Of a stretch of DNA of 64,000 bases, positions 2,488-55,409 are shown piece by piece. Position numbers and translations under genes: made by a program. The notes under the pieces were generated by a model. The model had not been told where the DNA came from. It searched no databases and saw only the letters and a program-made list of their open reading frames with translations. Source of the stretch: an uncultured Thermoplasmatales archaeon (GTDB lineage: Archaea; Thermoplasmatota; E2; DHVEG-1); NCBI GenBank assembly GCA_964467345.1, contig CAYXPY010000001.1:82986-146985 (forward strand), in the 5' to 3' direction. Each line of letters starts with the position of its first letter. Position 1 is the stretch's first letter.

Positions 2488-2730
2488 TCAGAATGCATAG
2501 AAATGAGAAAAACCCTAATATATTTTTACTCAACCACACGTCCATGAACAAATTTTTTGCGTACGCAAAAATATCTCGTATTCCAAGTATTGGTGCTCTA
2601 GGGATTGCCCCTGCCATATTATTTTCAATTGCTGAAATACCACCCGTAATTCTGTTGATAGGTATCCTTATCATTTGGTATGTTTTATGTACACCATTAC
2701 TTGGAGAACGAGGATTCAAACAAAGTAAGT

Positions 2731-2750
2731 AAAAAAAAAAAAAAAAAAAA
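2731..2750. repeat. A20 homopolymer immediately upstream of the geranylgeranyl-reductase gene's RBS.
   Basis: Twenty consecutive A on the + strand, followed by GAGGAAACTC and then the ATG. No minus-strand gene ends nearby, so it is not a terminator. Confidence 0.9.
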
Positions 2751-2760
2751 GAGGAAACTC

Positions 2761-3969
2761 ATGACATATGATGTAACGGTCGTTGGGGCAGGTCCTGCAG
2801 GCTCGACAACCGCAAAGTTACTCTCCGAAAAAGGTTTTAAAACCCTGTTAATCGATAAAGAGCAATTTCCTCGGGACAAACCATGTGGTGGAGGATTACC
2901 CCTACGCGTATTACAACGATTCCCTTATGTTGTCGTTGATAAGATTATTGAGGCGTACTCATCAAGCGGGACGGTTTTTTCTCCTTCATTGAAACACCAA
3001 ATTGATATCTGTAAAGACAGGCCAATAATATCTACAATCTTGAGGAAAAAGTTTGATTATGAATTGCTGAATTTCGCACAAAATGCAGGTGCCATTATTC
3101 AACAGCAAACTCTTGTTGATTCCGTCAAAACATCTGATGAAAAGGCGCAAGTGAAACTGCATCAAGGACAAACGATTGATACAGAGATAGTCGTTGGCGC
3201 AGATGGAGTAAACAGCGTGATTGCAAAAACAACGGGACTGCAAAAAACAGGGGCAGAAAAAGGTGTGTGTCTCCTGCAAGAGTTTGAGGTTGATGAAAAT
3301 ATTATGGATGAGTATTTTACCCCGTTTCGACATTGTTATATCCATTCGAGATTCAAATCAATAGGCGGTTATGGATGGGTCTTTCCAAAAAAAAAACATC
3401 TGAACGTAGGGTTTGGTATTGTCCAGGCCTTAAAAAATCTAGAACAGAAACCAAATATCCTGAAATGCTATCAAAGCTATGTCTCGTTGTTAAAAGAAAG
3501 CAATCTTATCCCGCAAGATTTAAAGAAAGCAGAAATCAAAGGCGGAGCACTGCCGACACATCCGTTAGAGAAAACCTATGGACGTCGCCTTCTCCTTGTT
3601 GGTGATGCAGCAGGATTTATCAATCCGTTATCCGGCGAAGGAATCTATTATGCCATGGCTTCAGGGAAAATCGCTGCAGAACTCATAACCGAAGCGTTAG
3701 AGAAAAATGACACAACAGAAGAATTTTTATCAAAATACCAGCGACTGTGGCAAAAAGATTTTGGTAAAGATATTGATCGTATCTTAACGGTTGTGAAAAG
3801 AGGAAGTGTTGAGTACACAGAACGGGTTATTCATATCGTAAGTAAAGATCGCAAACTGACCGATCTCATGATGGGGGTTATCACAGGAGAATTAGGTGTT
3901 GAGGAATACAAATGGAGAATACTCAGAAGGTTTGTTTATAGTTCGTTTAAGCATCGTCTAGGGTTGTAA
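2761..3969 (+). CDS. Geranylgeranyl reductase family flavoprotein (digeranylgeranylglycerophospholipid reductase-like).
   Basis: N-terminal FAD fingerprint MTYDVTVVGAGPAGSTTA, and an LLVGDAAGFINPLSGEGI motif typical of GGR/FixC-like flavoproteins. GGAAA RBS precedes the ATG at 2761. Confidence 0.8.
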   Translation: MTYDVTVVGAGPAGSTTAKLLSEKGFKTLLIDKEQFPRDKPCGGGLPLRVLQRFPYVVVDKIIEAYSSSGTVFSPSLKHQIDICKDRPIISTILRKKFDYELLNFAQNAGAIIQQQTLVDSVKTSDEKAQVKLHQGQTIDTEIVVGADGVNSVIAKTTGLQKTGAEKGVCLLQEFEVDENIMDEYFTPFRHCYIHSRFKSIGGYGWVFPKKKHLNVGFGIVQALKNLEQKPNILKCYQSYVSLLKESNLIPQDLKKAEIKGGALPTHPLEKTYGRRLLLVGDAAGFINPLSGEGIYYAMASGKIAAELITEALEKNDTTEEFLSKYQRLWQKDFGKDIDRILTVVKRGSVEYTERVIHIVSKDRKLTDLMMGVITGELGVEEYKWRILRRFVYSSFKHRLGL

Positions 3970-6642: not shown

Positions 6643-9600
6643 ATGCGAAGGTCGTACCTCTCAGTAGTCGGTATACTTCTTCTACTTGCACTTCCAGCGT
6701 TAAGCATGCCGATATCCTCGCAGGATGATACAAGCCTCCTTTGGAACCCCGCGTATAAGGACTGGCCGCATAGACAAGAGCTACAACTTCCCATCCCTAC
6801 AAATGATCCACGGGCTCATTATCAACCAATAGACCTTCGCCACAGGTTTGAAAAATCATGTTGGACTGAAAATGAGAACAATACGTCAATTCGTGTCTCT
6901 TGTTGGCATAAAGAACAATGGCATAATTTAGATTCGCAAATCTATTCTATTTTACAGGAGAACGGTAAGGTCAGTTCTATCACCGAATGCAACATTATTT
7001 TTTTGATCCCTGATTTCGCAGATGGGACAGAACGATACTTCGTGTATTATAGCGATGATAGAACATCCAAACCAAATTACATAGATCACGTTATGCTTGA
7101 AGATGCCAATTATACCTCATCGCCGTTACCTGAGCTTTCAGCCCAAGCAAGATTCTATGGCATCAAACAAGATGGGTTTTGCATCTACGGTGTAGGACAA
7201 GAAGGAACACTTCTCGATAGATCCTGTGCTCAAGTGGTTGTAAAACAAAACAGAGGAACAAAGGAATTCGATATCATTAATTCAGATCAAATCATATCAT
7301 TTGCATTTTCATATTATTACGGGAGTAAAGAAAAAGACGAAAGCGCTTCAGATCAAATTTTTCTCGATAAAAAGATCTTTGTCGACGGAAACCTCATGGT
7401 GGAATTTGGAATAATTAGCGAATCGAAAAAAAAGGATGTTCAGACGACTGCCATTTATCGATATTACTACTGTCCTTGTGAGGATAAACGGATATATGTT
7501 CATGTGAAACATGAAATGCTGAAAGATGCAGCAGTTCAAGGTATTGACAACATCGATGGACGTTTTGGTTCTTTAATATCCTTAAAAGCAAAAAGTGCCG
7601 CGGTCGAATCTTTAAATTTTGGGGAAATACACCCATTCCTTAACTTCTATAGTCATAATGAACGGATCGAGCAATACCAGTTAAATCAGAATCCTTCAAC
7701 AAAAGAACGAGAGTGGATTATCTCCTATAAAAACGACGCAAGCCTTGGATCGGAAGCATGGTTAAGTTATGGCGAGGGAAAGAAAGGAAAATCTAAGGCT
7801 GTTATTTTTTCATCCAATGAAGATATTGTTATCTCAGGAACGGATGAACAAGATGGAGTCCAGATAAAAGTCGCTGAAAAAGAATATCTTAACTTCCTTG
7901 GCACCGAGGTGGACTATGTCTCAATCAATTTCGGAAGACGATCATATAAACCAGGAGGGAGTCATGATGTCACGATACCATCGGATCTTACCGTGCAATT
8001 CGACGCGGAGGTATACGCCACAGATACAGGTGGATATGAAGCAGTACAAAAGGAATCAACGTTTTACAAAGCATTGATAAAATCTCGGAAGCTTTCCGGA
8101 GAGAATCAATTTGAACGAGAACAAAAAAGATACAATATTACTATCATTCCACGATTCGGGGGAACGCGGTTAACGCATCCCCGGCTGTCGAACCGCACGG
8201 GTAGTCTTTTTCCAGTGATGTGGGTTGAGTTGCATCGTGAAGGACAATTAATTGCTCAAGGTGTAGCAGATCGAGTTCTTTTTGTAAGAGCAAGAAAAAC
8301 CTTCCTTGACATACTAGAGGGTGAGTATCTTGTCAAAGTGTTTTTTAAAACTGAACGAAGGAAGGTTTTCACTGGTTCGACTATTGTAATTTTAAATAAA
8401 GATACGAAAGTCAATGTGTTTTGTACTTGGGAAAGAATAATACAATTTACTTTTATTGATGGAAATGGAAACGGAATACCTGGGATCCATGCCTGGTTAA
8501 CAAATAAAGATGGCATGATATTCGATGAAAATGATACAAAAGATGAGGGGGTAGGTATTGTCCGGGCCCCCTACAATGCAAATGAACCGTATTCCCTCCG
8601 AGCAGAATATAAAGGTATCATCATCTATGAATCAGGGCTGCAGAAAAGTCTTAAAAAATTAAATGTAGAGGTAATCGTTAATCTCTATACCTTTGATGTT
8701 ATCATAACAGATAGGCTTAACCTGCCACCAGGCATTGATATCATACCCCTTCTGATAAAATCAAATGGGAACAAAACACAACCATTAACCGCCATTGACC
8801 GGGGAAATGGATTGTTTACTTTTGAGGAACTCCCGAAAGGAGAGTATCATCTTCAAATCAGCTATGGTGAGTTTATTGATACTATCCATATCACGATTCC
8901 TGGTGAAAGCAACGTTATCAGAATGAGTTTTTCTGCAGCTTTTGATTTGACAATCCAATTGTTCGACTCGAAAGGGAATGGGCTCACAAATGACAATATT
9001 GAGTTTGTAATCCTCCGCGATAACAAAACCATAAGTAAAACAAAGGATAAAATTATTACTCTGCCTCCAGCGCACTATAAAATCAATGCCTATTTAGATA
9101 ACAAGCTTATTGGTGTAAAACAAGTTGAACTCATAAGTGATAAACATTTAATGTTGGTAACCACCGTTGAATCACTTTTCCCACTACTTCTTTCACTTCT
9201 GTTATATGTGTTGTTTGCTTTTTTTGTTATACTTACATTGTTAAAAAAATTTTCACTCTCCTCCCTCCTAAAATCTCTTGCAGTTCTCTTTGTTATTTTT
9301 TCGCTGTTCCAACCATGGTGGCTGTTCACCGGATCAAGTGCGAGGCTACCTATAGAAAAGACCACCGCGTTATACATTAACCCAGGAATGATGATAGAAA
9401 CAAAACAATACTATGGGGAATTGACTCTTACATTAGCTGAAATGCCAGAAATCTTCATTATGTTTCTTGCAGCAATGGTACCACTTGCATCATTTGCATG
9501 CATAAGCATAAGTCTCGGAATCATTTTGAAAAGAACACCGAAAAAGAAATATGCGTTTTTTTTAAGTGTGTTTGGAGTTGTTCTCCTTGCCATTCTGCTC

Positions 9601-36550: not shown

Positions 36551-36654
36551 GATTACTCACCCTGCATGAGATTTTGCTTTAGAATGAGACTACATCAGCA
36601 GGGTGCATATAAAACTACGTTTGAAGGTTTCAAAGTAACATAAAAAAAGAAGGA

Positions 36655-36728
36655 CGGACCTGTCGGGATTTGAACCCGAGTCAGAGGCTCCGGAGGCCTC
36701 TGTGATATCCAAGCTACACTACAGGCCC
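36655..36728 (-). tRNA. tRNA-Arg (anticodon CCG).
   Basis: Reverse complement folds as acceptor GGGCCTG/CAGGTCC (one G-U pair), anticodon arm GAGGC-CTCCGGA-GCCTC, and T-arm TCGGG-TTCAAAT-CCCGA. 74 nt, no encoded CCA. Confidence 0.8.
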
Positions 36729-36880
36729 AAGACAACCCGGCTAATCCGCAGAAGAATTAATAGGTTTTGCGTGGTCTTTCTTTTTTCTTTATATAGATAG
36801 TTTTAGACAAAGAGTAATATTCTATTCGGAATCTCAAAACACTATGGAAAAAACGTAGCAAAAGAAATCCTACTGCCAAT

Positions 36881-41103: not shown

Positions 41104-41221
41104 GTCGGGGTGGCTCAGCCTGGTCAGAGCGCCTGACTCATAAGCTCAGCTCAAAGGTTCGTCTGAAGCGTAGTTGCGCTAAGATATCAGGAGGCCGCGG
41201 GTTCAACTCCCGCCCCCGACA
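41104..41221 (+). tRNA. tRNA-Met (anticodon CAT; elongator or Ile2-type) with a ~43-nt intron at the canonical 37/38 position.
   Basis: Acceptor GTCGGGG/CCCCGAC, D-arm GCTC-AGCCTGGTCA-GAGC, anticodon stem CCTGA...TCAGG interrupted after CTCATA by 41143..41185, T-arm GCGGG-TTCAACT-CCCGC. G1:C72 argues against an initiator. Confidence 0.8.
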
Positions 41222-41444
41222 CCTTATTTAAATACTCAACAGGAGAAAAAACACCCTTTTTTCGTGACTGCACTCTGAACCCGCAAAAGGAAGGAATCTG
41301 AACCTGCAAGGTAATGACAAAAAGACTTAAAAACAAAACATGACTTCAATTTCAATTGAAAAAATTGCTTAATCTCTGTTCCTTCGGAGGATATTGTTTT
41401 TATAGGAGAACATTCATTTAAAATATTGATACAGGGGGAAAATC

Positions 41445-42110
41445 ATGAGTAGAAATCATTTATTTAGAAAAGGTTTGACGGCTGGAATTATCTCACTTTT
41501 CTTTGCAACTATCATTATCCCATCATCGTATGCAGATGATTCATTCACTTACTTCTCAGACAAAGAAAATGCAATACCCGCTAGTGCAGAAAATTGGTCG
41601 TATAGCAATTTTACGCTCCCTAATGTTCATATCACCTATGACCGCAACAAATGGAAATGGGGAGTTGTAGAGTTCGAGGATTCTAACCCGGAATTTGATT
41701 TGAATTACTCGTCCTTTGGGACTAATCCTGATTGGGTGAATGTTGGGTTCAATATAACGATTTTCTGCCATACGCAAGCACAAGTATTCCCAGCATGGTT
41801 TGAGATGGACATCGAGTTAGCCCCAAATGGAAGCATCCCTCAAGGCATGGGTGGTGGAGGCGCTATTTTGAGGAGATGGAATTGGACATCGCAAGAACAC
41901 TTGGCGTATTTTGCTATCACGAAAGACATGGTAAATACTGACGTTCAAGGGAAAATCGCTGTGGTAGGAATTCCACCAAGATTGTTTTTCCTATCATATT
42001 TATTCATTCCTCTTCACATATTTTGGTGGTTCGCTGATTTCAGAATGATCATTCCCTTGGAGGAACGACGTGGGGCTACAATGGAATTTACCATCCATGT
42101 TCATGATTAA
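41445..42110 (+). CDS. Secreted hypothetical protein with signal peptide.
   Basis: N-terminal LTAGIISLFFATIIIPSSYA signal-like segment. No recognisable domain. Confidence 0.5.
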   Translation: MSRNHLFRKGLTAGIISLFFATIIIPSSYADDSFTYFSDKENAIPASAENWSYSNFTLPNVHITYDRNKWKWGVVEFEDSNPEFDLNYSSFGTNPDWVNVGFNITIFCHTQAQVFPAWFEMDIELAPNGSIPQGMGGGGAILRRWNWTSQEHLAYFAITKDMVNTDVQGKIAVVGIPPRLFFLSYLFIPLHIFWWFADFRMIIPLEERRGATMEFTIHVHD

Positions 42111-42156
42111 AATCAATATATTTGATAGGAGATTATGATAAAGGAGGTAGGAAAGT

Positions 42157-43158
42157 ATGGATAAGAAACCTCTGATTGGAGTCAGTATCCTGGCTGTGGT
42201 TCTTCTTGTGATGGGTTCATTGAGTAATGTTGTTGGGTATCAAACACAAAATATTGAAAAATCACAATTCTTATCTATGAAAAAGACGCAAAGTTCAGCC
42301 ATCGATTCTTTTAATAATGAAACAGAATTAAAATATTACGATGTAGAATTATTAGATATAGTCTTGGGATTCGAACGAGATATTTGGAAATCCGCTATTC
42401 GACTGACTCAAGATGAGATGGCTGCCTATGCCGGGTGGACTTTGACAAAAGTCAACATTGCGTTTTGTGCAGATGCCGGGTGTTCTGTAGCAGATGTTCG
42501 GATTTATCTTTATGGCAAGGGAACAAATGTATATCCTGGTCCCCTTATTGCCAATGATACTGTATGGACAATAGATACAACAGGTATAACGACTGTACCT
42601 CTTGTAACATCCATCAATCTCTCTGACTATGAGGAACTCTGGATTGCGATTGAATGGACACCTATTGACACACAAGGTGTAGGTATTTTTTACGCTTGGA
42701 TGGACCAATTATCTGGGCCTCATGTTACAAATAAAAGCGACTTTATCTTCCTTAATAGCTGGGGCTGGACTCAATTGCATACAATCAATCCGGTATGTGA
42801 TGGTCGATGGGGAATAGGAGCAATTATTGAAGACACCCGTCCAACGGAGTTGATGATTGGGTATATCCATGGACCAGTTGGAATAACAACGAAAATTTCA
42901 AATATTGGTGTAAGAGATGCCGAAAATGTTTCTTGGTCAATATCGGTTAATGGTGGTTTTCTTCATGGAGTGGTTATTTTAGAAAGTGGAATGCTCTCGT
43001 TATTAGATATGGGTTCCTCTACAGGAATTAATGTCGGTATGTTCTTTGGATTCGGCAAGATACTAATTATAATAACTGCTGAGGCAAAGAATGCACCTGA
43101 AGTTCAAGCAATAAAAACTGCAATTTTACTTGGCCGTTTTGTCTTCAGAATTAAATAA
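42157..43158 (+). CDS. Secreted hypothetical protein with signal peptide/N-terminal anchor.
   Basis: LIGVSILAVVLLVMGSLSNVVG N-terminal hydrophobic segment. AGGAGG RBS upstream. Confidence 0.5.
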   Translation: MDKKPLIGVSILAVVLLVMGSLSNVVGYQTQNIEKSQFLSMKKTQSSAIDSFNNETELKYYDVELLDIVLGFERDIWKSAIRLTQDEMAAYAGWTLTKVNIAFCADAGCSVADVRIYLYGKGTNVYPGPLIANDTVWTIDTTGITTVPLVTSINLSDYEELWIAIEWTPIDTQGVGIFYAWMDQLSGPHVTNKSDFIFLNSWGWTQLHTINPVCDGRWGIGAIIEDTRPTELMIGYIHGPVGITTKISNIGVRDAENVSWSISVNGGFLHGVVILESGMLSLLDMGSSTGINVGMFFGFGKILIIITAEAKNAPEVQAIKTAILLGRFVFRIK

Positions 43159-43175
43159 AACCAAAAGGTTGGAAA

Positions 43176-44072
43176 ATGATGATAAGGAAATGGTTGGCAA
43201 TAGGAATCATTCTCTTGTTCGTTGGTGTGACCATAGCACCAACTATCAGCTTCAACACCGTGAAAGCATCCCAGGATGACGACTTGGTGGAAGTCACCAC
43301 CCAAGCATGCGGCATCCAAGGATATGGTGATACTACTGTGAAACTCACCAGGGAACAATACCAGAACCTGGAACAGTATCTGGTGGAGTTAAGAGCCAGG
43401 TTGAACCAGACAACAACCAGGGAGGAAGCAGCCCCCATCTTCAAAGAAGCAGTGGTGGAGCTGGATAAGTACGGGTTGTTACCAAAAGGGATGAGTGTTG
43501 AGCGAGCACAGAGGTTGGTGATATCCAAGTGTGTTAGTCAAAGGTCTGGAGAGTTATTAAAAAGAGTATTTGGAGGAAATCAAAATAGTGAAAATTTTAA
43601 TGAGTATTGTACAGTTTCTGGCAAAGTAACGAGAGCAAGATCTTTTGGTGCATTTTATCCAATTCGTCTCCTCTTATCAGTTTTAGGGAATAGAATTAGT
43701 GATTTTTGGATGGTCAGATGGGTATTTTCAGAAATCCTTTTAGATTTGCGAAGTATATATTTTCCCTTGTATTTATTTAGTGAATTCAGTATCGGTGAAA
43801 GTTATTGGTATTATCAAGAACAACATTATGAGTATTATCCCTCCGTTGGATGGATTTCATCTACTGGAACTAATGGTTTAATAAATTATACTGGAGAGTT
43901 TTATGGTCAAATACGAGAAATACCAACATTAAATTTGGGTCCAGTAGGAAAAGAAATCTATTATTCAGGTATCTACGGTTTTGCAGGATTTTGTATTAGA
44001 AAATCAAACGGTAGTGAGTTAATAGGTTCATGTCGTTTAATTGATATCGGACCTTCTCCCCCTGAACAATAA
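43176..44072 (+). CDS. Secreted hypothetical protein with signal peptide.
   Basis: WLAIGIILLFVGVTIAPTIS N-terminal hydrophobic segment. No recognisable domain. Confidence 0.5.
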   Translation: MMIRKWLAIGIILLFVGVTIAPTISFNTVKASQDDDLVEVTTQACGIQGYGDTTVKLTREQYQNLEQYLVELRARLNQTTTREEAAPIFKEAVVELDKYGLLPKGMSVERAQRLVISKCVSQRSGELLKRVFGGNQNSENFNEYCTVSGKVTRARSFGAFYPIRLLLSVLGNRISDFWMVRWVFSEILLDLRSIYFPLYLFSEFSIGESYWYYQEQHYEYYPSVGWISSTGTNGLINYTGEFYGQIREIPTLNLGPVGKEIYYSGIYGFAGFCIRKSNGSELIGSCRLIDIGPSPPEQ

Positions 44073-44126
44073 TCATATGAACTGACAATCTGAAATTGTC
44101 TGAAAATGATAATCTAAGGATCAACA

Positions 44127-44153
44127 AAAAAAAAAAAAAAAAAAAAAAAAAAA
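44127..44153. repeat. A27 homopolymer tract on the + strand.
   Basis: Twenty-seven consecutive A, 55 nt after the stop of the last cargo gene. No minus-strand gene upstream that it could terminate. Confidence 0.9.
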
Positions 44154-44341
44154 CTGTGTCAATACTTTTCCTCTGGTTTCTTAAAATCGACAAAATATTG
44201 GAGGAGCATTGAATCCCTGGCAATCATTCCCAGTGGGGGATTTTATGCCAGTCCTTCACTTCCCCCACGGGTGGGAGCACTGAAATCTTGGCACGCATTC
44301 CCGACAGGAGCATTATATTCCCTTTTTGGTGGGAGCTGTAA

Positions 44342-44369
44342 CCCCGGGGGTACATGTCCGCCCCCGACA
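44342..44369 (+). repeat. Degenerate direct repeat of the tRNA-Met 3' end (T-arm and acceptor). Candidate attR.
   Basis: CCCCGGGGGTACATGTCCGCCCCCGACA versus tRNA CCGCGGGTTCAACTCCCGCCCCCGACA. Confidence 0.45.
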
Positions 44370-44582
44370 TGCTATTTATTAGCACGGTTATTTAGAGGAG
44401 AAAAATCATTTTAATTAATTATTAAATGAACCGTTAAAAAGAGTAAAAACCTCGAATAAAAATATCTAATTGAATATTACATTTTATTATCTTCTGAGAA
44501 ATTTATCATTATTTTGTCCAACTTCTATGTGAATATTTTTTTATACTATGGATAGAGTATGAAATAAAGAGGCAGGTAAAAC

Positions 44583-46175
44583 ATGAGAAAAATACTACTA
44601 GTGACAATCATTCTCCATATCATTTTTGTAAATTCTGTCTCTGTTCTTGGAATTGTTGACACAGTTAAAACGACAATTGGTCAAGCCGAAGACATAGATG
44701 ATATCATCATTGATAAGATGGAACAGCGACATCTTCCTGGTTTGTCAGCTTCAATAGTAATTGGGAAAACCGTTCGGTGGCAAAATGCATATGGTTATGC
44801 CAACATAGAAAGAAACGTCATGGTAACAAATAAGACGTTGTTTAAGATTGCCTCAGTTTCAAAAACGATTACAGCAACTGCGTTAATGCAACTCTACGAT
44901 CAAAAGCTTTTCAACCTATCCGATCCAATAAACGAGTACCTTCCGTACCCGGTGATTCATCCACTGTATCCCTCAACACCTATTACATTTCACATGCTAC
45001 TGACACATTCATCTGGGATTAACGACAATTGGGAGTACTTGTTTTATTTTCAAGGTGATGCACCAATTCCTTTTCAGGTTTTTCTTGAGGAATACTTAGT
45101 TCCAGGAGGATTGTACTATGATGCTGAGAATAATTTTTGTCACTGGGAACCCGGAACAAGTTGGGATTATAGCAATATCGCTGTTGCATTGGTCGGTTAT
45201 TTGGTTGAAGTTATTTCAGGTGTTAACTTTACAGAGTATGTAGAGTCTTCGCTTTTTTCTGCTTTGGAGATGGATGAATCCGCGTGGTATTTACGAGATC
45301 TGAATGTGTCACATATAGCGATGCCGTATCATTGGAACGGTGCAGGATACCAACCCTACGGTCATATCGGGTATGTCGATGTTCCCGCGGGTGATTTGAG
45401 AACCAGTTCGTCTCAGCTTATCCATTTTCTGACGATGTTTATAAACAATGGTGTCTACAAAGGCCAGATGATTCTTGAGAATAGTACCGTGCATTTGATG
45501 TTAACTCCGCAGTTACTATTTCAACCAAATATCGGGTTGATATGGTGGAAAAGCTCAATCGGTGGAAGAACGGTTTGGGGACATAATGGGGTAGATTTTG
45601 GGGCACGAGCGATGATGCATTTTGACCCAAGCACCAATATAGGCGTTGTTGTACTTACCAACGGGGAAGGAGATCTTTCAGATATTTGTGATACACTTTT
45701 TGACTATGCAGAAACTATAGTAAATGTTCCTCCAGATGTTCCAATAATTAAGGGGCCAACAACAGGTAGACCAAATACGCTCTATACATATACCCTCGAA
45801 ACAATAGACACAGAAGGAGACGATGTATACTTTTGTATAAACTGGGGAGATGATACCGCCGAGGTTTGGATAGGGCCTTATGCATCTGGTGAAGAGGTAC
45901 TGGCAACTCATTCATGGTCAAAGATGGGTATCTATAGTATCAAGGTCAAAGCTAAAGATGTATATGATGGTGAGAGCGACTGGACTGTTTTGTCTGTAAC
46001 CATGCCAAAAAATGTAATTTCCAATTTAGAGGCTCATCGAATATTCAATTGGTTGTTTGAACGATTTCCAAACGCCTTTGCTATCATACGATGGATTCTT
46101 AATTCCTACGAATCGAACTTTATTTATCTTCCAATTTTTATCTTTTTTGGTGGTAACTATCACCCTAAAATGTGA
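44583..46175 (+). CDS. Exported beta-lactamase-family serine hydrolase with a C-terminal PKD-like domain and conserved tail.
   Basis: Signal peptide. S-x-x-K active-site motif ASVSKTITA. Class C beta-lactamase/PBP-like body. C-terminal PKD-like INWGDD...HSWSKMGIYSIKVKAKDV. Confidence 0.75.
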   Translation: MRKILLVTIILHIIFVNSVSVLGIVDTVKTTIGQAEDIDDIIIDKMEQRHLPGLSASIVIGKTVRWQNAYGYANIERNVMVTNKTLFKIASVSKTITATALMQLYDQKLFNLSDPINEYLPYPVIHPLYPSTPITFHMLLTHSSGINDNWEYLFYFQGDAPIPFQVFLEEYLVPGGLYYDAENNFCHWEPGTSWDYSNIAVALVGYLVEVISGVNFTEYVESSLFSALEMDESAWYLRDLNVSHIAMPYHWNGAGYQPYGHIGYVDVPAGDLRTSSSQLIHFLTMFINNGVYKGQMILENSTVHLMLTPQLLFQPNIGLIWWKSSIGGRTVWGHNGVDFGARAMMHFDPSTNIGVVVLTNGEGDLSDICDTLFDYAETIVNVPPDVPIIKGPTTGRPNTLYTYTLETIDTEGDDVYFCINWGDDTAEVWIGPYASGEEVLATHSWSKMGIYSIKVKAKDVYDGESDWTVLSVTMPKNVISNLEAHRIFNWLFERFPNAFAIIRWILNSYESNFIYLPIFIFFGGNYHPKM

Positions 46176-46203
46176 TATGCATCTCCCCGAAATATTTTTA
46201 TTT

Positions 46204-47019
46204 ATGAAACCATTAAACGCATCAAAGTATAATCAAGATGATTCAATGACTTCAATGAAACCTTGGTATCAAGCATTATTTGAGAATTACGCAAATACCT
46301 ATGAAAAAGAACCATATACAAAGGGAACTATTGGTGAATGTGATTTCATTGAAAAAGAAATTGGATATAATAAAGGTCTCAAGATTCTTGATATCGGATG
46401 TGGAACCGGAAGGCATTCTATTGAACTAGCAAAACGCGGATATCAGGTTACAGGAGTGGATTTATCTGATTCGATGCTTAAAAAAGCAAAACAAAACGCA
46501 AAAAAGTACCAGGTCGCGGTTAAATTTGAACAACATGATGCACGAAGTTTAGGATATAAATCTGAGTTTGATGTAGCTATTATGATTTGCGAAGGAGCGT
46601 TTTCTTTGATGGAAACTGATGAGATGAATTTCCAAATACTAGAAAATGCTTATCATGCCTTAAAATCAAAAAACAGTAAATTAATATTTACCACGCTTAA
46701 TGGATTTTTCCCTCTTTTTCACTCAGTAAAAGATTTCATGGAATCTGAAAAAAAGGAAGGGACTTCAGAATATTCTCAAAACAAGTTCGATTTAATGACG
46801 TTCAGAGACCATGGTATAACTACTTTTATTGATGATGACGGAAAGAAAAAAGAACTAACGTGTAATGAACGATACTATGTTCCATCTGAAATAACTTGGA
46901 TGTTGAAATCACTTGGCTTTACGAAAATCGACATCTTTGGTGCCAAGCTTGGAGCATTCAGTAGAGATGATCCATTGACCACCGAGGATTTTGAAATGTT
47001 GGTCATCGCAGAAAAATAA
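46204..47019 (+). CDS. Class I SAM-dependent methyltransferase.
   Basis: Motif I ILDIGCGTGRHS, post-I acidic VDLS, motif II. ATG at 46177 is an alternative start; the track's upstream extension overlaps the previous gene. Confidence 0.7.
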   Translation: MKPLNASKYNQDDSMTSMKPWYQALFENYANTYEKEPYTKGTIGECDFIEKEIGYNKGLKILDIGCGTGRHSIELAKRGYQVTGVDLSDSMLKKAKQNAKKYQVAVKFEQHDARSLGYKSEFDVAIMICEGAFSLMETDEMNFQILENAYHALKSKNSKLIFTTLNGFFPLFHSVKDFMESEKKEGTSEYSQNKFDLMTFRDHGITTFIDDDGKKKELTCNERYYVPSEITWMLKSLGFTKIDIFGAKLGAFSRDDPLTTEDFEMLVIAEK

Positions 47020-47053: not shown

Positions 47054-47467
47054 TTATCCCTCAAACTCATCTGTTATTTTCTGTAACGCCTGGATGAGAC
47101 CATCTAATTGTTTGATTATTTTTAAAGCCTCTATTTTACTTCCTTTCAGTTTTATCCTGTTTTTAAGAAGGGCCATGGCAGTTCCAATCTTCCCTTCAAA
47201 AATATCCCGATATACTCCATAGTTCCCGGTGATGACAAAAACAGCATCCTTCCCGGTAAGTATACCCTCCGTGTGAAGAATAAAATCATGTAACCTGCCA
47301 TCGTTGAGTTCCAGATAGAAACTCATCATCGTATCCTTGGGAGGGACATGTTCGATGATGCCAAGTAACGATGTTGTCAAGTTCCCAAGATCTTCCACAG
47401 GATCAAGATTCTCATCGATATATCTCTTCCCGTATTCTATCCATTCATCTGACAGAAATTTTACCAT
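47054..47467 (-). CDS. SCP2 sterol-carrier-like domain protein.
   Basis: 137 aa. C-terminal GKIGTAMALLKNRIKLKGSKIEALKI resembles the SCP2 signature. Confidence 0.55.
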   Translation of the reverse strand: MVKFLSDEWIEYGKRYIDENLDPVEDLGNLTTSLLGIIEHVPPKDTMMSFYLELNDGRLHDFILHTEGILTGKDAVFVITGNYGVYRDIFEGKIGTAMALLKNRIKLKGSKIEALKIIKQLDGLIQALQKITDEFEG

Positions 47468-49524
47468 TCTTCAAAGTCCCCTAACACGGAGTGAAGAACA
47501 TCTCGAAAAATTCTATCCTCCTCAGGGGTCAGTCCCTTGGGGAGGGGATACAGCACATGCTCCTTGCGATAAATGCCCTTAAATAAATAGTTAATAAGGG
47601 TGAAAATATTGCCCATGACCAGGGATTTTTCTGTGGTCTCCAGTAAGGTCGTACTAATTCTACCTGCGGCTTTTGGGTCGTTATGGTCATAGAAATAGTC
47701 ATATTCAATGTAGATGAACTTGCCTGTGTCCAGAGGACTGATAAATCCCAACGCATGCTCCAGCTGATACTTATCGCCGACCTCGGCAAACATGTCAATC
47801 CATCGCAGGATGTGTTTTTTATCACCTGCCCAGACCGCTCCACCAGGCCCCATCGCCATCCGCTGTCTCATGAGTCGGGAAGGTAAAATACGGAACGCAT
47901 GGAGCCAGACCACATTCGTGAACTCTGGTTTTGCGTAAATTTTTTTGAAGAATTCCTGCAGGTCAGAATCGTAGACCTTTGCGATGTTAGCTGGTGTCGC
48001 ATCCAATCCTTGCTCCAGATGTTTTTTCATAGGTCCTGCAAAAATCGCCTTGAGCGGGTCTTTCTCCTCTGAAAGTATTTTTAAAAATTCGCTTTCTTTC
48101 AAGGACGCCAATTTCGGTGATCCAAGGATCAAGGTCTTAAGCATGGCTTGATCAATGATGCAATCAGCCATTTCTTCAACGATTTTTTTATCCTCCTTGG
48201 TGCAGATTACATCTACGACGTAGCGGAGTTTCAGATAGTTCTTACAGACATCCTCAAAATCTGTCGCTATCTGCCGTGTCGGGCATATGAACTCCGCAAG
48301 ATATTTATAAGAAAGAACAGCAAGTGACAGACCAATTCTTCGCTTCCCCAGCTCTAGGACCAAATCAAGGGCATCTTGAACATTATCAAACGGAACAAAG
48401 ACCGCTTCCTCCGTTTCGAACACAGGGAAGAGTTTCACTGTGACCTCTGTAATAATATACGAGGGGCTTAGAGAGATATTTGTAAATCCATTATCGGTCG
48501 CATATGGGTTTGATATCTCCAGGTCATGATGATGACGGATGTTGCCATCCATATCGACGAGTTCAAGGTCGATGAAATTATCTGCAAAACAGCCATAGGT
48601 ATTTCCCCAGGTTGTTACAATCCCGGTCGTTGCGATGTTGGCGCATACATGTGCTCCGGCTTCTGCGACATTGGCCCGTAACTTATGTCTATAGGCCTCT
48701 TTTTGGAGTTCAAAAGATGTGACCCCTGCGCCCACCGTGGCAGTGGAGCTTTCCGTATGAATGGATAGTTTTTTCATCCGTAAGAGGTCAATGACGATTC
48801 CTCGTTCCAGACTGGTCGCATTGGATAGCACCGTTGGTGTCGCAACTGATAGCGCGGTTCCACCGCTGCGGGGCAAAAAAGGTATGTTCTTTGTGTTTGC
48901 GAACTGAATGATTTTTGATACCTGCTCGGCATTCTCAGGCATGACGATATAGTAATTCAAGGCAGCATCAGGAGGGATGATGGAACGGATATACGATGAG
49001 ATAATCACGGGATCATTGGTAGCCCATTGGTCACCAACAATACCACGGAGACCTGTGACGATATCGTCCTGTGGTATTTTCTGCAGCTGGGTTTTATCCA
49101 GTGATGCAACATATTCCTTCAAGGCTTTGGCAACTTTCTCGGGACGTAGCTGGGTAGCAAAATTACATTGTTTATCACAGACACCACATAGGCAACAAGA
49201 ATCGGCAATCTCAATGAGTTTCTCTGTTGGTTTAATTCTCCCTTGTTGTAAATGCTTGACTAGTTCCATCCGACCCTGCGGCCAGTATGCGAGATACCCA
49301 TGTTTTTTCCCGGAAGGGCATAAACCAGACCCAAGAAAATCGATACGGCACATCCCACAGTGGGTTCCTTTTTCCGCAATCCGCACTGCGTCATCTAAAC
49401 TAGTTTTTTTCAGTGTTACGACCTGATTTTTTGCCATCTTTTTTTCCTCCATGGCAACTATTTGTTTGTTTTTCATGTCATTTCTGTTATTAAATGTTTT
49501 TATTCGTTTTTTGTCCTGAATCAT
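47461..49524 (-). CDS. FAD-binding oxidoreductase (FAD-linked oxidase/PCMH family) with an N-terminal Cys-rich Fe-S-like domain.
   Basis: N-terminal HCGMCR...CPSG and CCLCGVCDKQC clusters. FAD-binding-4-like IPFLPRSGGTALS. About 690 aa. Confidence 0.5.
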   Translation of the reverse strand: MIQDKKRIKTFNNRNDMKNKQIVAMEEKKMAKNQVVTLKKTSLDDAVRIAEKGTHCGMCRIDFLGSGLCPSGKKHGYLAYWPQGRMELVKHLQQGRIKPTEKLIEIADSCCLCGVCDKQCNFATQLRPEKVAKALKEYVASLDKTQLQKIPQDDIVTGLRGIVGDQWATNDPVIISSYIRSIIPPDAALNYYIVMPENAEQVSKIIQFANTKNIPFLPRSGGTALSVATPTVLSNATSLERGIVIDLLRMKKLSIHTESSTATVGAGVTSFELQKEAYRHKLRANVAEAGAHVCANIATTGIVTTWGNTYGCFADNFIDLELVDMDGNIRHHHDLEISNPYATDNGFTNISLSPSYIITEVTVKLFPVFETEEAVFVPFDNVQDALDLVLELGKRRIGLSLAVLSYKYLAEFICPTRQIATDFEDVCKNYLKLRYVVDVICTKEDKKIVEEMADCIIDQAMLKTLILGSPKLASLKESEFLKILSEEKDPLKAIFAGPMKKHLEQGLDATPANIAKVYDSDLQEFFKKIYAKPEFTNVVWLHAFRILPSRLMRQRMAMGPGGAVWAGDKKHILRWIDMFAEVGDKYQLEHALGFISPLDTGKFIYIEYDYFYDHNDPKAAGRISTTLLETTEKSLVMGNIFTLINYLFKGIYRKEHVLYPLPKGLTPEEDRIFRDVLHSVLGDFEEW

Positions 49525-51538: not shown

Positions 51539-52519
51539 ATGAGAAATAAACAGAAAAAAACTGTCCTGTATGCTTGCCTGGGATCTGTACTCTTCATTCT
51601 TCTCACCTTATCTGGTTGTATGCATAAAATCCCAGAAGACCCAAATACGTTTACTAGGACAATTCTTTTCGATAGTCTTACCCGGTCGTATCGAATCCAC
51701 ATCCCGCCATTAGTACCAGAGAACAGCAGCCCCGCTCTTGTGTTTGTTCTTCATGGTGGTGGCGGTACTGCTGAGGGCATGGAACGAACCTTGACCCAAG
51801 GGGGATTTAACACACTGGCTGACCACTATGGCTTCCTTGTTGTGTATCCCGATGGCATTGAAAAAAATTGGAACGATGGAAGAAAAAACGTCTCTGATCC
51901 CGCCCATGAACAAAACATCGATGACGTCGGTTTTATTCAAGCCCTTATTGAGAATCTTACTGATGAATTCAATATTAATCCCACTCAAATATTTTCTACA
52001 GGAATATCAAATGGGGCGATGATGTCCTATCGTCTTGCATTTGAGATACCTGAAAAAATCGCTGCGATCGCCCCAGTCGCAGGAGCAGTACCAATCGATC
52101 TGCTGTCGCATAACATATCAGATAATCCAGTCTCTGTCTGCGTTATCAGTGGAACACATGACCCGCTTGTACCATGGGCAGGAGGATTGGTCGGTACTCC
52201 AAGAAACCCACGGGGGGTTGTGATCTCGGTACCTGAATCTGTCTTATTTTGGGTCCTGCATAATAACTGTTCCACTACACCAAATAGCACGGTATTACCA
52301 GATAAAGACCCAAAAGACCATACCTGGATTCAACAAGACACCTATACAGGAGGCGCAGGGAACGCCGAGGTGGTTTTATACACTATTTATAACGGGGGTC
52401 ACACCTGGCCAGATGGGTACCAATATCTCCCTGAGATACTCGTCGGGAGAACATCCCATGATATGGATGCAAATACAGTGATTTGGGATTTTTTTTCCAC
52501 CCATTCAAAACAACAATAA
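51539..52519 (+). CDS. Lipoprotein esterase of the PHB-depolymerase/LpqC (COG3509) alpha/beta-hydrolase family.
   Basis: Lipobox LTLSGC. LVFVLHGGGGTAEGM. Nucleophile elbow GISNG. Confidence 0.7.
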   Translation: MRNKQKKTVLYACLGSVLFILLTLSGCMHKIPEDPNTFTRTILFDSLTRSYRIHIPPLVPENSSPALVFVLHGGGGTAEGMERTLTQGGFNTLADHYGFLVVYPDGIEKNWNDGRKNVSDPAHEQNIDDVGFIQALIENLTDEFNINPTQIFSTGISNGAMMSYRLAFEIPEKIAAIAPVAGAVPIDLLSHNISDNPVSVCVISGTHDPLVPWAGGLVGTPRNPRGVVISVPESVLFWVLHNNCSTTPNSTVLPDKDPKDHTWIQQDTYTGGAGNAEVVLYTIYNGGHTWPDGYQYLPEILVGRTSHDMDANTVIWDFFSTHSKQQ

Positions 52520-55393: not shown

Positions 55394-55409
55394 AAAAAAA
55401 AAAAAAAAA
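55394..55409 (-). terminator. Oligo-T (T16 on the minus strand) 8 nt downstream of the small membrane-protein gene. Putative terminator.
   Basis: A16 on the + strand, adjacent to the stop of the 55417..55665 minus-strand gene. Confidence 0.4.

What the first reader, a model, noticed from the sequence alone, without database searches (positions are those of the whole stretch)
41195..44369. tRNA-Met-associated islet bounded by a degenerate copy of the tRNA 3' end. It carries three secreted proteins but no integrase.
The last ~27 nt of tRNA-Met (CCGCGGGTTCAACTCCCGCCCCCGACA) recur 3.1 kb downstream at 44342..44369 (CCCCGGGGGTACATGTCCGCCCCCGACA). This includes an exact GC-rich 12-mer, in a genome that is about 60% AT. 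That geometry is what site-specific integration into a tRNA 3' end leaves behind (attL and attR). Between the repeats lie three consecutive genes for signal-peptide proteins with no recognisable domains, an A27 tract, and a GC-rich structured stretch. There is no integrase, excisionase or replication gene. This is either a decayed integrated element or a small cargo islet mobilised in trans. The cargo proteins are candidates for a novel surface or secreted function.
Basis: seen in the sequence. Interest (0 to 1): 0.6.

Follow-up and report, generated by a model that had tools for sequence, protein, structure and literature searches.

The report
tRNA-anchored cassette islet in Thermoplasmata
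The 3.1-kb islet is real: it is one integrase-less gene cassette inserted at the 3' end of a tRNA(CAU) gene, a site where related uncultured Thermoplasmata archaea hold variable arrays of such cassettes, each ending in the same conserved ~95-nt repeat.

Summary
An intron-bearing tRNA(CAU) lies at 41104-41221. Its last 12 nt recur exactly at 44358-44369 and nowhere else in the window.

The second copy belongs to a conserved ~95-nt unit:
- P arm: TTTTT-GGAGGGAACTGTAACCCCGGGG plus 5-7 variable nt
- core: CCGCCCCCGACA
- a semi-conserved flank (F)

I found 47 distinct copies in related MAGs and metagenome contigs. In all 12 loci where the tRNA is visible, the 19 extra copies lie downstream of it, on the same strand, 0.9-8.2 kb apart.

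The segments between copies are unrelated. They encode secreted proteins, ABC transporters, small enzyme sets and a type I restriction system. Near-identical contigs differ by whole segments, and homology breaks at the core. That is the signature of site-specific recombination.

No integrase lies in the window. In the tRNA-Met loci none lies in the arrays, though two carry one about 5 kb upstream. One repeat copy (L107/L120) adjoins a 192-aa tyrosine recombinase.

In the window the variable zone runs to 47053 and includes the beta-lactamase-like and methyltransferase genes. c2 and c3 belong to large lineage-specific secreted families. c1 is nearly an orphan.

Verdict: a CIME-like or integron-like variant of known tRNA integration. 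A trans-acting integrase is inferred, not shown.

The parts
41104..41221 (+). tRNA(CAU), elongator Met or Ile2 type, with an intron of about 43 nt after the anticodon loop. It is the anchor (attB/attL side) of the array.
   Evidence: Rfam tRNA 58.9 bits. 83-100% identical over the full gene in 29 related loci, always after S6e-eIF2gamma-PIN.
41210..41221 (+). Core copy 1, CCGCCCCCGACA. It is the 3' strand of the acceptor stem plus the discriminator base, and the proposed crossover segment (attL).
   Evidence: Exact 12-mer, two copies in the window. Homology breakpoints between related contigs fall at this segment.
41222..41444 (+). Left end of the cassette. Flank type F2 (CCTTATTTAAATACTCAACAGGAGAAAAA) is followed by a ~180-nt leader carrying a TATA-like box and a GGGGG ribosome-binding site ahead of c1.
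   Evidence: F2 follows the tRNA in L001, L010 and L075, and follows internal repeat copies in L010, L004, L110, L121 and L117. The leader is 83.5% identical over 206 alignment columns to the sequence after an internal repeat in L118. Promoter and RBS are read from the sequence, not tested.
41445..42110 (+). c1: 221-aa protein with an N-terminal signal-like leader. Nearly an orphan.
   Evidence: ORF. Only a sub-threshold DUF6515 Pfam hit (E 0.005, 17.1 bits, cutoff 24.9) and no PHROG. Only 11 representative clusters at E<=1e-3 among 1.84 billion. Absent from every fetched locus.
42157..43158 (+). c2: 333-aa secreted-type protein with two beta-sandwich domains.
   Evidence: 327 proteins at E<=1e-3. 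About 94 are family-level homologues (E<=1e-39); the rest match only the short N-terminal leader. Source names, where given, are almost all Thermoplasmata/Thermoplasmatota. No Pfam family. AlphaFold model pLDDT 84. Only generic beta-sandwich matches: GH2 non-catalytic domains and transglutaminase barrels, TM <= 0.28.
43176..44072 (+). c3: 298-aa secreted-type protein, helical N-terminal part plus a beta-rich C-terminal domain.
   Evidence: More than 1000 homologues at E<=1e-5 with no Pfam family. Source names, where given, are almost all Thermoplasmatota (one is labelled Actinobacteria). Model pLDDT 76. No PDB match below E 0.1.
44126..44153 (+). A28 homopolymer. Its significance is unknown.
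   Evidence: The window also has A20 at 2731-2750 and A16 at 55394-55409, so this is not specific to the islet.
44155..44312 (+). Conserved non-coding stretch. It holds two degenerate direct copies of the P-arm motif (GGAGCAYTGAA at 44203 and 44274). These may be extra arm-type sites or decayed repeat units.
   Evidence: Internal repeat D2. 72-85% identical to L139, L108 and L116. No covariation. Folding z = -1.0.
44313..44357 (+). P arm of the repeat unit: CTTTTTGGTGGGAGCTGTAACCCCGGGGGTACATGT.
   Evidence: nhmmer E 4e-22 against the repeat profile. The block GGGAACTGTAACCCC is 70-99% conserved per column in 47 distinct copies.
44358..44369 (+). Core copy 2, CCGCCCCCGACA (attR, or an internal attP-like junction).
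44370..44410 (+). Flank type F1: TGCTATTTATTAGCACGGTTATTTAGAGGAGAAAAA.
   Evidence: The same flank directly follows the tRNA in L002, L004, L007, L008, L011, L013, L021, L114, L115 and L130.
44583..46175 (+). Secreted beta-lactamase-fold hydrolase with a PKD domain. It lies in the variable zone but has no terminal repeat.
   Evidence: Pfam PF00144 at 4.8e-55 and PKD. A 39% homologue sits inside a repeat-bounded cassette in L013.
46255..47019 (+). SAM-dependent methyltransferase. The likely start is M67 of the listed ORF. It also lies in the variable zone.
   Evidence: Pfam. A 75% orthologue sits in a repeat-bounded cassette in L003, in inverted orientation.
47054..49524 (-). Conserved right-hand chromosomal flank: a 137-aa protein and a 687-aa FAD-binding protein. 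The esterase at 51539-52519 (+) belongs to the same flank.
   Evidence: In L117 these orthologues (71-84% aa) follow the last repeat copy directly, in the same order and orientation. Esterase orthologues follow the last repeat in L002, L004 and L114.

Best explanation
The 3' end of this tRNA(CAU) gene is a site-specific recombination hot spot in one clade of uncultured Thermoplasmata.

Gene cassettes of 0.9-8 kb carry an attP-like site of about 95 nt. The site has a P arm with the motif GGGAACTGTAACCCC, the 12-nt core identical to the tRNA 3' end, and a flank F. Cassettes recombine with the tRNA core, or with the core of a resident cassette. Successive insertions build the array tRNA-core | cassette | P-core-F | cassette | P-core-F and so on.

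The window's islet, 41222-44369 with c1-c3, is one such cassette sitting next to the tRNA. The cassettes carry no recombinase of their own. A tyrosine recombinase encoded elsewhere is proposed to insert, excise and swap them. The candidate is the 175-190-aa family found beside one repeat copy.

Shown: the repeat family, its exclusive position and orientation, the unrelated cargo, the breakpoints at the core, and the absence of an integrase in the window and in the arrays.

Inferred: that recombination is enzyme-catalysed and site-specific, that it works in trans, and which enzyme does it.
For: (a) There are 47 distinct non-tRNA copies of the unit. The strongly conserved blocks are separated by 5-7 variable nt, and the indels are not multiples of three, so the unit is non-coding.

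(b) In 12 loci where the tRNA is in view, all 19 extra copies are 3' of it and co-oriented. Contigs with several copies but no tRNA in view are also internally co-oriented.

(c) Cargo between copies is unrelated. It includes a papain/NosD protease, an ABC-2 transporter pair, beta-lactamase-like proteins, isochorismatase plus Pyr_redox, UbiA plus GGR, three radical-SAM/SPASM proteins plus NAD synthase, Fic, AbiEii, and type I R-M.

(d) Sharp breakpoints at the core (with the identities below):
- L127 is 98.9% identical to L002 from the core onward, but has a P arm where L002 has the tRNA body.
- L123 and L129 are 98% identical up to ...GACATT, then unrelated.
- L004 and L002 are 95.5% identical up to 11 nt past core 2. 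Different cassettes follow, and homology resumes at the next repeat.
- The same cassette is first after the tRNA in L002, L004 and L114, but follows an internal copy in L119 and L121.

(e) L001 is 91% identical to the window in core genes. It shares the tRNA plus 42 nt of F2 and then carries the L010-type cassette. That cassette is 85% identical to L010, while the core genes of L001 and L010 are only 77% identical.

(f) The conserved right flank follows the last repeat directly in L117, L002 and L004.

(g) A 192-aa tyrosine recombinase (PF00589, 4.9e-30) ends about 140 nt from a repeat copy in L107 and L120. Its family numbers more than 180 clusters; the named members are Thermoplasmatales or Saliniplasma.

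(h) The repeat matches no Rfam family.
Against: No integrase was found in the window. In the tRNA-Met loci none lies in the arrays; two of them (L021, L015) carry one about 5 kb upstream, in L021 next to tRNA-Arg. Only one element (L107/L120) pairs an integrase with a repeat copy. Three other members of that integrase family have no repeat or tRNA within 10 kb.

No excised circle or strictly empty site was observed.

Flanks F1 and F2 follow both the tRNA and internal copies, so B' and P' cannot be told apart.

The recently exchanged c2-c3 block (42136-44110) does not end at the repeats. Some shuffling in this region therefore uses other routes, such as homologous recombination between shared leaders.

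The window's beta-lactamase and methyltransferase segment has no terminal repeat.

All comparison sequences are MAG or metagenome contigs, so misassembly at repeats is possible.
Confidence: 0.7

Rival explanations
1. These are ordinary decayed integrated elements. Each segment was once an autonomous virus or plasmid with its own integrase, integrated at the tRNA. The integrase and replication genes were later deleted, leaving dead att scars. Nothing is mobilised today.
For: A full tRNA plus a 3' fragment is the classical scar of integration (PMC9897764). Tandem integration followed by decay to integrase-less remnants is documented in bacteria (PMC5704250). One integrase sits next to a repeat. 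The window has degenerate partial copies at 44203 and 44274.
Against: 47 copies with unrelated, mostly 1-3-gene cargo all keep the same ~45-nt P arm at 70-99% per-column conservation, while the surrounding intergenic DNA is unalignable. That is not expected of neutral scars from independent elements. Cassette gain, loss or replacement is seen between contigs 95-99% identical, so the events are recent. No virus or plasmid genes are present: no PHROG family, and no match in the phage or plasmid collections or in IMG/VR.
Confidence: 0.2
2. The repeat is a regulatory or RNA module, such as a terminator-plus-promoter unit or a small tRNA-like RNA. It was duplicated along a hypervariable secreted-protein region, and homologous recombination between copies reshuffles the genes.
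For: The unit starts with a T run and is followed by leaders with TATA-like boxes. Many copies have partial dyad symmetry, GGGAAC...GTTCCC. Leaders and signal-peptide regions are shared among otherwise unrelated genes. The c2-c3 exchange does not use the repeats.
Against: The unit has a fixed orientation relative to the tRNA whatever the orientation of the flanking genes. It contains the exact tRNA 3' end. It matches no Rfam family. Folding is weak, with mean z = -1.2; the left arm is constant while the right arm varies, so there is no covariation. Breakpoints fall within a few bases of the 12-nt core rather than anywhere along the ~95-nt homology.
Confidence: 0.08
3. The match is a chance recurrence of a GC-rich 12-mer.
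For: None beyond the short length of the exact match.
Against: Shuffle expectation is 0.11 even with one mismatch allowed, and 0 of 100 shuffles gave two matches. The surrounding ~95 nt are conserved in 47 copies elsewhere.
Confidence: 0.01

Closest known systems
CIMEs (cis-mobilizable elements) and tandem accretion of genomic islands at tRNA genes in bacteria (Streptococcus ICESt1-related elements; review PMC5704250)
   Same: The elements are flanked by attL and attR, lack integration and transfer genes, and sit at the 3' end of a tRNA gene. Arrays build up by site-specific integration into a resident att site. Mobilisation depends on a recombinase supplied by another element.
   Different: This case is archaeal. 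The units are much smaller (0.9-8 kb, often one to three genes) and more numerous per site. All share one conserved P arm despite unrelated cargo. No parental integrase-bearing element of ICE/IME type is seen, and derivation by decay is not shown.
Integrons and CALINs, including the archaeal ones (PMC9668308)
   Same: One primary site is followed by an array of cassettes, each ending in a dedicated recombination site. Most arrays are seen without an integrase. Cargo is adaptive, secreted or defensive.
   Different: No IntI lies beside the primary site, which here is a tRNA gene. The repeat has no attC-type hairpin or GTTRRRY core. Cassettes are often multi-gene, lie in either orientation and carry their own promoter-like leaders.
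Archaeal integrative elements at tRNA genes with pNOB8-type (type II) or SSV-type 'suicidal' integrases (PMC7253208)
   Same: The target is the 3' part of a tRNA gene, a direct repeat of the tRNA end bounds the insert, and tandem integrations are known for type II elements.
   Different: No integrase gene or int(N)/int(C) stumps lie at the borders, and the repeat unit is non-coding. There are no virus or plasmid backbone genes.
tRNA gene fragments left by integration, as catalogued in Thermococcaceae (PMC9897764)
   Same: A partial 3' tRNA copy marks the far end of the insert.
   Different: Here only 12-14 nt are tRNA-identical. The remainder of the unit is an element-specific conserved arm repeated many times.

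Membership tests
Site-specific integration at a tRNA gene (attL/attR direct repeats) | An intact tRNA at one border and a direct copy of its 3' end at the other | tested here: met
   tRNA at 41104-41221. The 12-nt copy is at 44358-44369 on the same strand.
Site-specific integration at a tRNA gene (attL/attR direct repeats) | Presence/absence or replacement polymorphism in relatives, with breakpoints at the repeat | tested here: met
   L127 vs L002/L114, L123 vs L129, and L004 vs L002. L001 vs the window breaks 42 nt after the tRNA.
Site-specific integration at a tRNA gene (attL/attR direct repeats) | An integrase gene inside the element | tested here: not met
   No PF00589 hit in c1-c3 or the neighbouring genes. 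The tyrosine-recombinase profile finds nothing in the 64 kb.
Site-specific integration at a tRNA gene (attL/attR direct repeats) | Excision to a circle and regeneration of the empty site | not testable with these tools
   This needs reads from the source sample or an experiment.
CIME / tandem accretion | attL and attR are retained while recombination and transfer genes are absent | tested here: met
CIME / tandem accretion | Several elements in tandem at the same att site | tested here: met
   Two to four co-oriented copies in L002, L003, L004, L013, L114, L117, L110, L129 and others. In the window there is one full copy plus degenerate ones.
CIME / tandem accretion | Derivation by decay of an ICE/IME, and mobilisation by an incoming integrase-bearing element | tested here: inconclusive
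   Only L107/L120 place an integrase in an adjacent cassette. No conjugation or replication genes were seen anywhere.
Integron | An IntI-type integrase adjacent to the primary site attI | tested here: not met
   Upstream of the tRNA lie PIN, eIF2gamma and S6e in all relatives.
Integron | attC sites: imperfect inverted repeats that fold as hairpins, with R''/R' core sites | tested here: not met
   Mean folding z = -1.2. Only 9 of 47 copies fall below -2. The left arm is constant and the right arm variable.
Integron | An array of cassettes, each ending in a recombination site, anchored at one primary site | tested here: met
SSV-type (suicidal) integrase element | The att site lies inside the int ORF, leaving int(N) and int(C) stumps at the borders | tested here: not met
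   Repeat copies differ by indels that are not multiples of three. The small ORFs over the repeat have no Pfam hit. No recombinase-like ORF lies at either border. SSV-type enzymes are divergent, so sensitivity is limited.
Second tRNA gene, split tRNA half or tRNA pseudogene | Recognisable tRNA arms (T arm with a GTTCRA loop) or an Rfam/ARAGORN call | tested here: not met
   No tRNA call at 44300-44370 at E<=10. Only 12-14 nt are tRNA-identical, and the T-loop is not conserved.

The most novel reading that the evidence does not exclude
This clade of Thermoplasmata runs a tRNA-anchored, integron-like gene-capture system. Integrase-less, promoter-bearing cassettes of one to several genes carry a dedicated ~95-nt recombination site. 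A minimal, catalytic-domain-only tyrosine recombinase encoded elsewhere inserts, excises and reorders them at the 3' end of tRNA(CAU). The tRNA gene plays the role of attI.
Probability: 0.3. Interest if true: 0.8.

Novelty: new variant of a known kind. Interest (0 to 1): 0.55.

Why it matters
Integration at tRNA genes and tandem accretion are textbook. What is unusual here is an archaeal locus where dozens of small, unrelated, integrase-less gene sets all end in one conserved recombination-site-like unit and stack behind one tRNA gene.

If the cassettes are moved in trans, this is a second, non-integron route to cassette capture. It would operate in an abundant but uncultured sediment and freshwater archaeal lineage. 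It would also explain how these organisms diversify their secreted and surface proteins and their defence genes.

The work gives concrete substrates for a recombination assay: the tRNA core, the P arm motif and a candidate 192-aa recombinase.

On the practical side, the repeat explains why four MAG contigs end inside this tRNA gene. It also explains why annotation pipelines would miss both the intron-bearing tRNA and its fragments.

Tried and rejected
- ARAGORN in default mode missed the intron-bearing tRNA. Rfam found it.
- Rfam at E<=10 on 44050-44600 gave only noise, GlsR25 and CrcZ at about 13 bits.
- Folding the GC-rich stretch on either strand gave no signal. RNAalifold on four homologues gave no covariation support.
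- An exact-sequence look-up of c2 found it is not on record.
- IMG/VR scans with two 16-mers gave 26 hits. All but one (L091) were chance matches in high-GC contigs. The full degenerate pattern gave no viral contig.
- A search for the small integrase family in IMG/VR returned only generic tyrosine recombinases at 40% identity or less.
- Three long contigs carrying relatives of the L107 integrase have no repeat unit and no tRNA within 10 kb. The enzyme-to-site link therefore rests on one element.
- SSV-type partition of an integrase gene was considered and rejected.
- A split-tRNA or 3'-half gene was considered and rejected, because there is no T-loop and no tRNA call.
- 'F1 directly after the tRNA equals the empty site' was considered and dropped. 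F1 also follows internal copies, so it cannot be assigned to the chromosome rather than to cassettes.
- Distant blastn of the islet against the phage and plasmid collections gave no match. PHROGs gave no family for c1-c3.
- The first script for folding statistics timed out and was rerun with fewer shuffles.


Full report
**1. What is in the window**

The window comes from an uncultured Thermoplasmata archaeon. Its eIF2-gamma is 91-97% identical to those of about 15 MAGs labelled Thermoplasmata or Thermoplasmatota.

Rfam finds a tRNA at 41104-41221 (58.9 bits). It has anticodon CAT and an intron of about 43 nt after the anticodon loop. ARAGORN in default mode misses it. The first pair is G1-C72, so it is an elongator-type tRNA (Met, or Ile2 after modification). 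That reading is mine, from the sequence.

Upstream lie ribosomal protein S6e, eIF2-gamma and a PIN_9 protein. Further out are RpoE', DUF359, tRNA-Arg(CCG), CorA, two KaiC-like ATPases and ArgRS.

The last 12 nt of the tRNA, CCGCCCCCGACA, recur exactly at 44358-44369 and nowhere else in the 64 kb. Shuffles give 0.11 expected matches even with one mismatch allowed.

Between the two copies lie three ORFs with signal-peptide-like N termini and no Pfam or PHROG family, apart from a sub-threshold DUF6515 hit for c1. There is also an A28 run and a G+C-richer non-coding stretch.

Two details need correcting. The A tract is A28, not A27. The stretch is not detectably structured: z = -1.0 and -0.6.

**2. 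The second copy belongs to a repeat family tied to this tRNA**

I fetched 80 loci through eIF2-gamma. S6e-eIF2gamma-PIN-tRNA(CAU) is conserved in about 30 of them, but what follows the tRNA differs almost everywhere.

The window sequence 44322-44430 matches two things. It matches the sequence directly after the tRNA in several relatives. It also matches extra sites a few kb downstream of the tRNA in L013, L004, L002, L003 and L010.

Anchoring on the 12-mer shows that these extra sites share far more than the tRNA end. A profile built from them was used to search all fetched DNA. A pattern scan of JGI metagenome contigs added 25 more loci.

Together this gives 47 distinct non-tRNA copies. Their consensus is:
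- a T run
- GGAGGGAACTGTAACCCCGGGG
- 5-7 variable bases
- (T/G)(T/C)CCCGCCCCCGACA
- a semi-conserved flank

Two common flank types are F1 (TGCTATTTATTAGCAYGGTTATTTAACAGGAGAAAAA) and F2 (CCTTATTTAAATACTCAACAGGAGAAAAA).

Only the last 12-14 nt are tRNA-identical. The arm in front of the core is specific to the repeat. Copies differ by indels that are not multiples of three, so the unit is non-coding.

In all 12 loci where the tRNA is in view, the 19 extra copies lie 3' of the tRNA on the same strand. Contigs with several copies but no tRNA in view are also internally co-oriented. Spacing between successive cores is 0.9-8.2 kb.

More distant relatives (eIF2-gamma at or below 82%) mostly lack the unit. 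Exceptions are L021 and weak hits in L026 and L030.

**3. What lies between the copies**

The segments are unrelated to each other. They encode:
- a papain/NosD-type secreted protease
- an ABC-2 transporter pair
- a beta-lactamase-fold protein
- isochorismatase plus a pyridine-nucleotide oxidoreductase
- UbiA plus geranylgeranyl reductase
- three radical-SAM/SPASM proteins with an NAD synthase
- Fic, AbiEii and an Mrr-like nuclease
- a type I restriction-modification system, on a contig that IMG/VR files under a giant-virus bin

Genes lie in either orientation. None of the segments has virus or plasmid backbone genes.

**4. Evidence that the core is a recombination point**

Four cases of sharp homology breaks support this.

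(i) L127 is 98.9% identical to L002, and 98.7% to L114, from the core onward. Upstream of the core, L002 and L114 have the tRNA body, while L127 has a repeat arm and another gene. Near-identical populations therefore differ by a tRNA-proximal cassette.

(ii) L123 and L129 are 98% identical through a gene, the arm and the core up to ...GACATT. They are unrelated thereafter.

(iii) L004 and L002 are 95.5% identical over 6.6 kb, up to 11 nt past the second core. They then carry different cassettes of 3.0 and 4.0 kb. Homology resumes about 50 nt before the third core.

(iv) The same cassette, encoding a ~500-aa secreted protein, is first after the tRNA in L002, L004 and L114. In L119 and L121 it follows an internal copy. 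Homology starts at the core.

For the window itself, the closest relative is L001, at 91% nt identity over 2.3 kb of core genes. It shares the tRNA and 42 nt of F2. It then carries a different cassette, the one found in L010. That cassette is 85% identical between L001 and L010, although their core genes are only 77% identical.

The left ~200 nt of the window cassette (41238-41441) recur at 83.5% identity after an internal repeat copy in L118.

This pattern is what site-specific recombination at a short core produces.

**5. Extent of the variable zone in the window**

In L117 the last repeat copy is followed directly by orthologues of the window genes at 47054-47467, 47461-49524 and 51539-52519. 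They are 71-84% identical at the protein level and in the same order and orientation. In L002, L004 and L114 the esterase orthologue follows the last copy.

The beta-lactamase/PKD gene (44583-46175) and the methyltransferase (about 46255-47019) therefore also lie in the accessory zone, although no repeat follows them. Homologues of both sit inside repeat-bounded cassettes in L013 and L003.

The non-coding stretch 44155-44312 holds two degenerate direct copies of the arm motif (GGAGCAYTGAA). It is conserved at 72-85% in L139, L108 and L116. It shows no covariation. I read these copies as extra arm-type sites or decayed units. That reading is an inference.

**6. The missing recombinase**

No integrase was found in the islet, within about 13 kb on either side, or anywhere in the window. 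A profile of tyrosine-recombinase catalytic domains finds nothing in the 64 kb at E<=1.

In the tRNA-Met loci none lies in the arrays. L021 has a 451-aa integrase beside tRNA-Arg, about 5 kb upstream of tRNA-Met. L015 has an integrase about 5 kb upstream.

Among about 50 repeat copies, only one element pairs with an integrase. In L107, and the near-identical L120, a 192-aa catalytic-domain-only tyrosine recombinase ends about 140 nt from the flank side of a copy (PF00589 at 4.9e-30; HxxR and Y motifs present).

Its family has more than 180 clusters, mostly of 175-190 aa. The named members are Thermoplasmatales or Saliniplasma. Three other members on long contigs have no repeat and no tRNA nearby. 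The link is a lead, not a demonstration.

SSV-type partition of an integrase gene is not supported.

**7. The cargo**

c2 has about 94 full-length homologues; source names, where given, are almost all Thermoplasmata or Thermoplasmatota. Its model (pLDDT 84) is two beta-sandwich domains with only generic matches.

c3 belongs to a family of more than 1000 proteins. Its C-terminal beta domain is modelled with confidence, but it has no PDB match below E 0.1.

c1 is close to an orphan, with 11 representative clusters in 1.84 billion.

The block 42136-44110 (c2-c3) is 93.4% identical to contigs L132-L138. There it sits in a long cluster of secreted proteins, without c1 and without repeat units at the homology ends.

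One of those contigs belongs to MAG JAFNFT. The housekeeping genes of that MAG at the tRNA locus are only 76-81% identical to the window. Subject to binning error, c2-c3 was exchanged recently, and by a route that did not use the repeats.

Leaders and signal-peptide regions are shared at 85-92% among otherwise unrelated genes. This would give homologous recombination plenty of substrate.

**8. Comparison with known systems**

The scar itself, a full tRNA plus a 3' fragment, is classical (PMC9897764).

The closest functional analogue is the bacterial CIME, or tandem-accretion, picture. Those elements keep attL and attR, have lost their recombination and transfer genes, stack at one tRNA gene, and move with a recombinase supplied by another element (PMC5704250).

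The array logic also resembles integrons and CALINs, which are known in Archaea (PMC9668308). However, IntI, attC hairpins and promoterless co-oriented cassettes were tested and not met.

Archaeal type II elements integrate in tandem at tRNA genes, and SSV-type ones split their own integrase gene (PMC7253208). Neither signature is present here.

I therefore file this as a new variant of a known kind. The mechanism class is known. The novel elements are the combination of many small integrase-less cassettes, one conserved element-specific arm, and a tRNA gene acting as the primary site in an archaeon.

**9. Verdict**

- Best explanation, probability about 0.7: the islet is a trans-dependent cassette inserted by site-specific recombination at the tRNA core, and is part of a clade-wide array system.
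- Main rival, about 0.2: the same scars, but dead remnants of once-autonomous elements.
- Regulatory-module reading: about 0.08.
- Chance: about 0.01.
- Interest: 0.55.

Noticed in passing
L107 1939-2517 (+); L120 811-1314 (-); family P0121-P0240: A large family of minimal (175-190 aa, catalytic-domain-only) tyrosine recombinases in Thermoplasmatota. A few members are 300-323 aa with an N-terminal SAM-like domain. In L144 and L145 an N-domain ORF (175 aa) lies 45 nt upstream of the C-domain ORF (176 aa), as if the gene were split.
   Followed up: partly
L140 5526-14453: One of these small recombinases sits between two divergent clusters of secreted proteins of similar make-up. Each cluster has a NosD/beta-helix protein and ends in a c3-like ~295-aa protein. 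The layout resembles an invertible or shufflon-like region.
   Followed up: no
window 42136-44110 vs L136 (JAFNFT010000012) and L075 (JAFNFT010000071): The c2-c3 block is 93.4% identical to a contig of a MAG whose housekeeping genes at the tRNA locus are only 76-81% identical to the window. This points to recent lateral exchange of a 2-kb block, or to a binning error.
   Followed up: partly
window 42150-42245, 43171-43273, 41383-41441 vs L132 15282-15377, 17142-17246, 15234-15286: Upstream leaders and signal-peptide coding regions are 85-92% identical between genes whose mature parts are unrelated. This looks like a shared 5' module in the secreted-protein repertoire.
   Followed up: no
window 43176-44072 (c3): The family has more than 1000 members with no Pfam family; source names, where given, are almost all Thermoplasmatota. 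The confidently modelled C-terminal beta domain (residues ~140-298, block-mean pLDDT 79-97, mostly >=90) has no Foldseek match in the PDB below E 0.1.
   Followed up: partly
L005, L009, L027, L073 (contig ends): Four MAG contigs end inside the tRNA(CAU) gene. Three end at about position 59, within the intron. This is probably an assembly break caused by the repeated 3' end and the strain-variable DNA behind it.
   Followed up: no
L091 (IMGVR_UViG_GVMAG-S-1041346-124_000001): A contig filed in IMG/VR under a giant-virus MAG carries a true copy of the Thermoplasmata repeat unit, next to a type I restriction-modification system and a 397-aa coiled-coil protein that I took to be RmuC-like from its sequence (not scanned). 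It is probably a misbinned archaeal cassette array.
   Followed up: partly
L021 5288-6640 (+) next to tRNA-Arg at 6714-6787 (-); L015 5369-6334 (-): L021 has a 451-aa tyrosine integrase directly beside the neighbouring tRNA-Arg gene, about 5 kb upstream of tRNA(CAU). L015 has a 322-aa integrase with a SAM-like N domain, also about 5 kb upstream. The L021 case suggests a second integration site; the window has no counterpart at its tRNA-Arg (36652-36729).
   Followed up: partly
window 2731-2750, 44126-44153, 55394-55409: Long A homopolymers of A20, A28 and A16. The first lies inside the ORF 2680-3969. These may be real slippage-prone tracts or a sequencing artefact.
   Followed up: no
window 46057-47019: The listed methyltransferase ORF (TTG start, 320 aa) overlaps the end of the 44583 gene. 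Comparison with the L003 orthologue suggests the true start is M67, at about 46255.
   Followed up: partly
L120 808-1443 (-): The integrase reading frame is preceded in frame by about 40 residues that, to my eye, resemble the N terminus of a bacterial ATP synthase beta subunit (not checked with any tool). This is probably a chimeric assembly.
   Followed up: no
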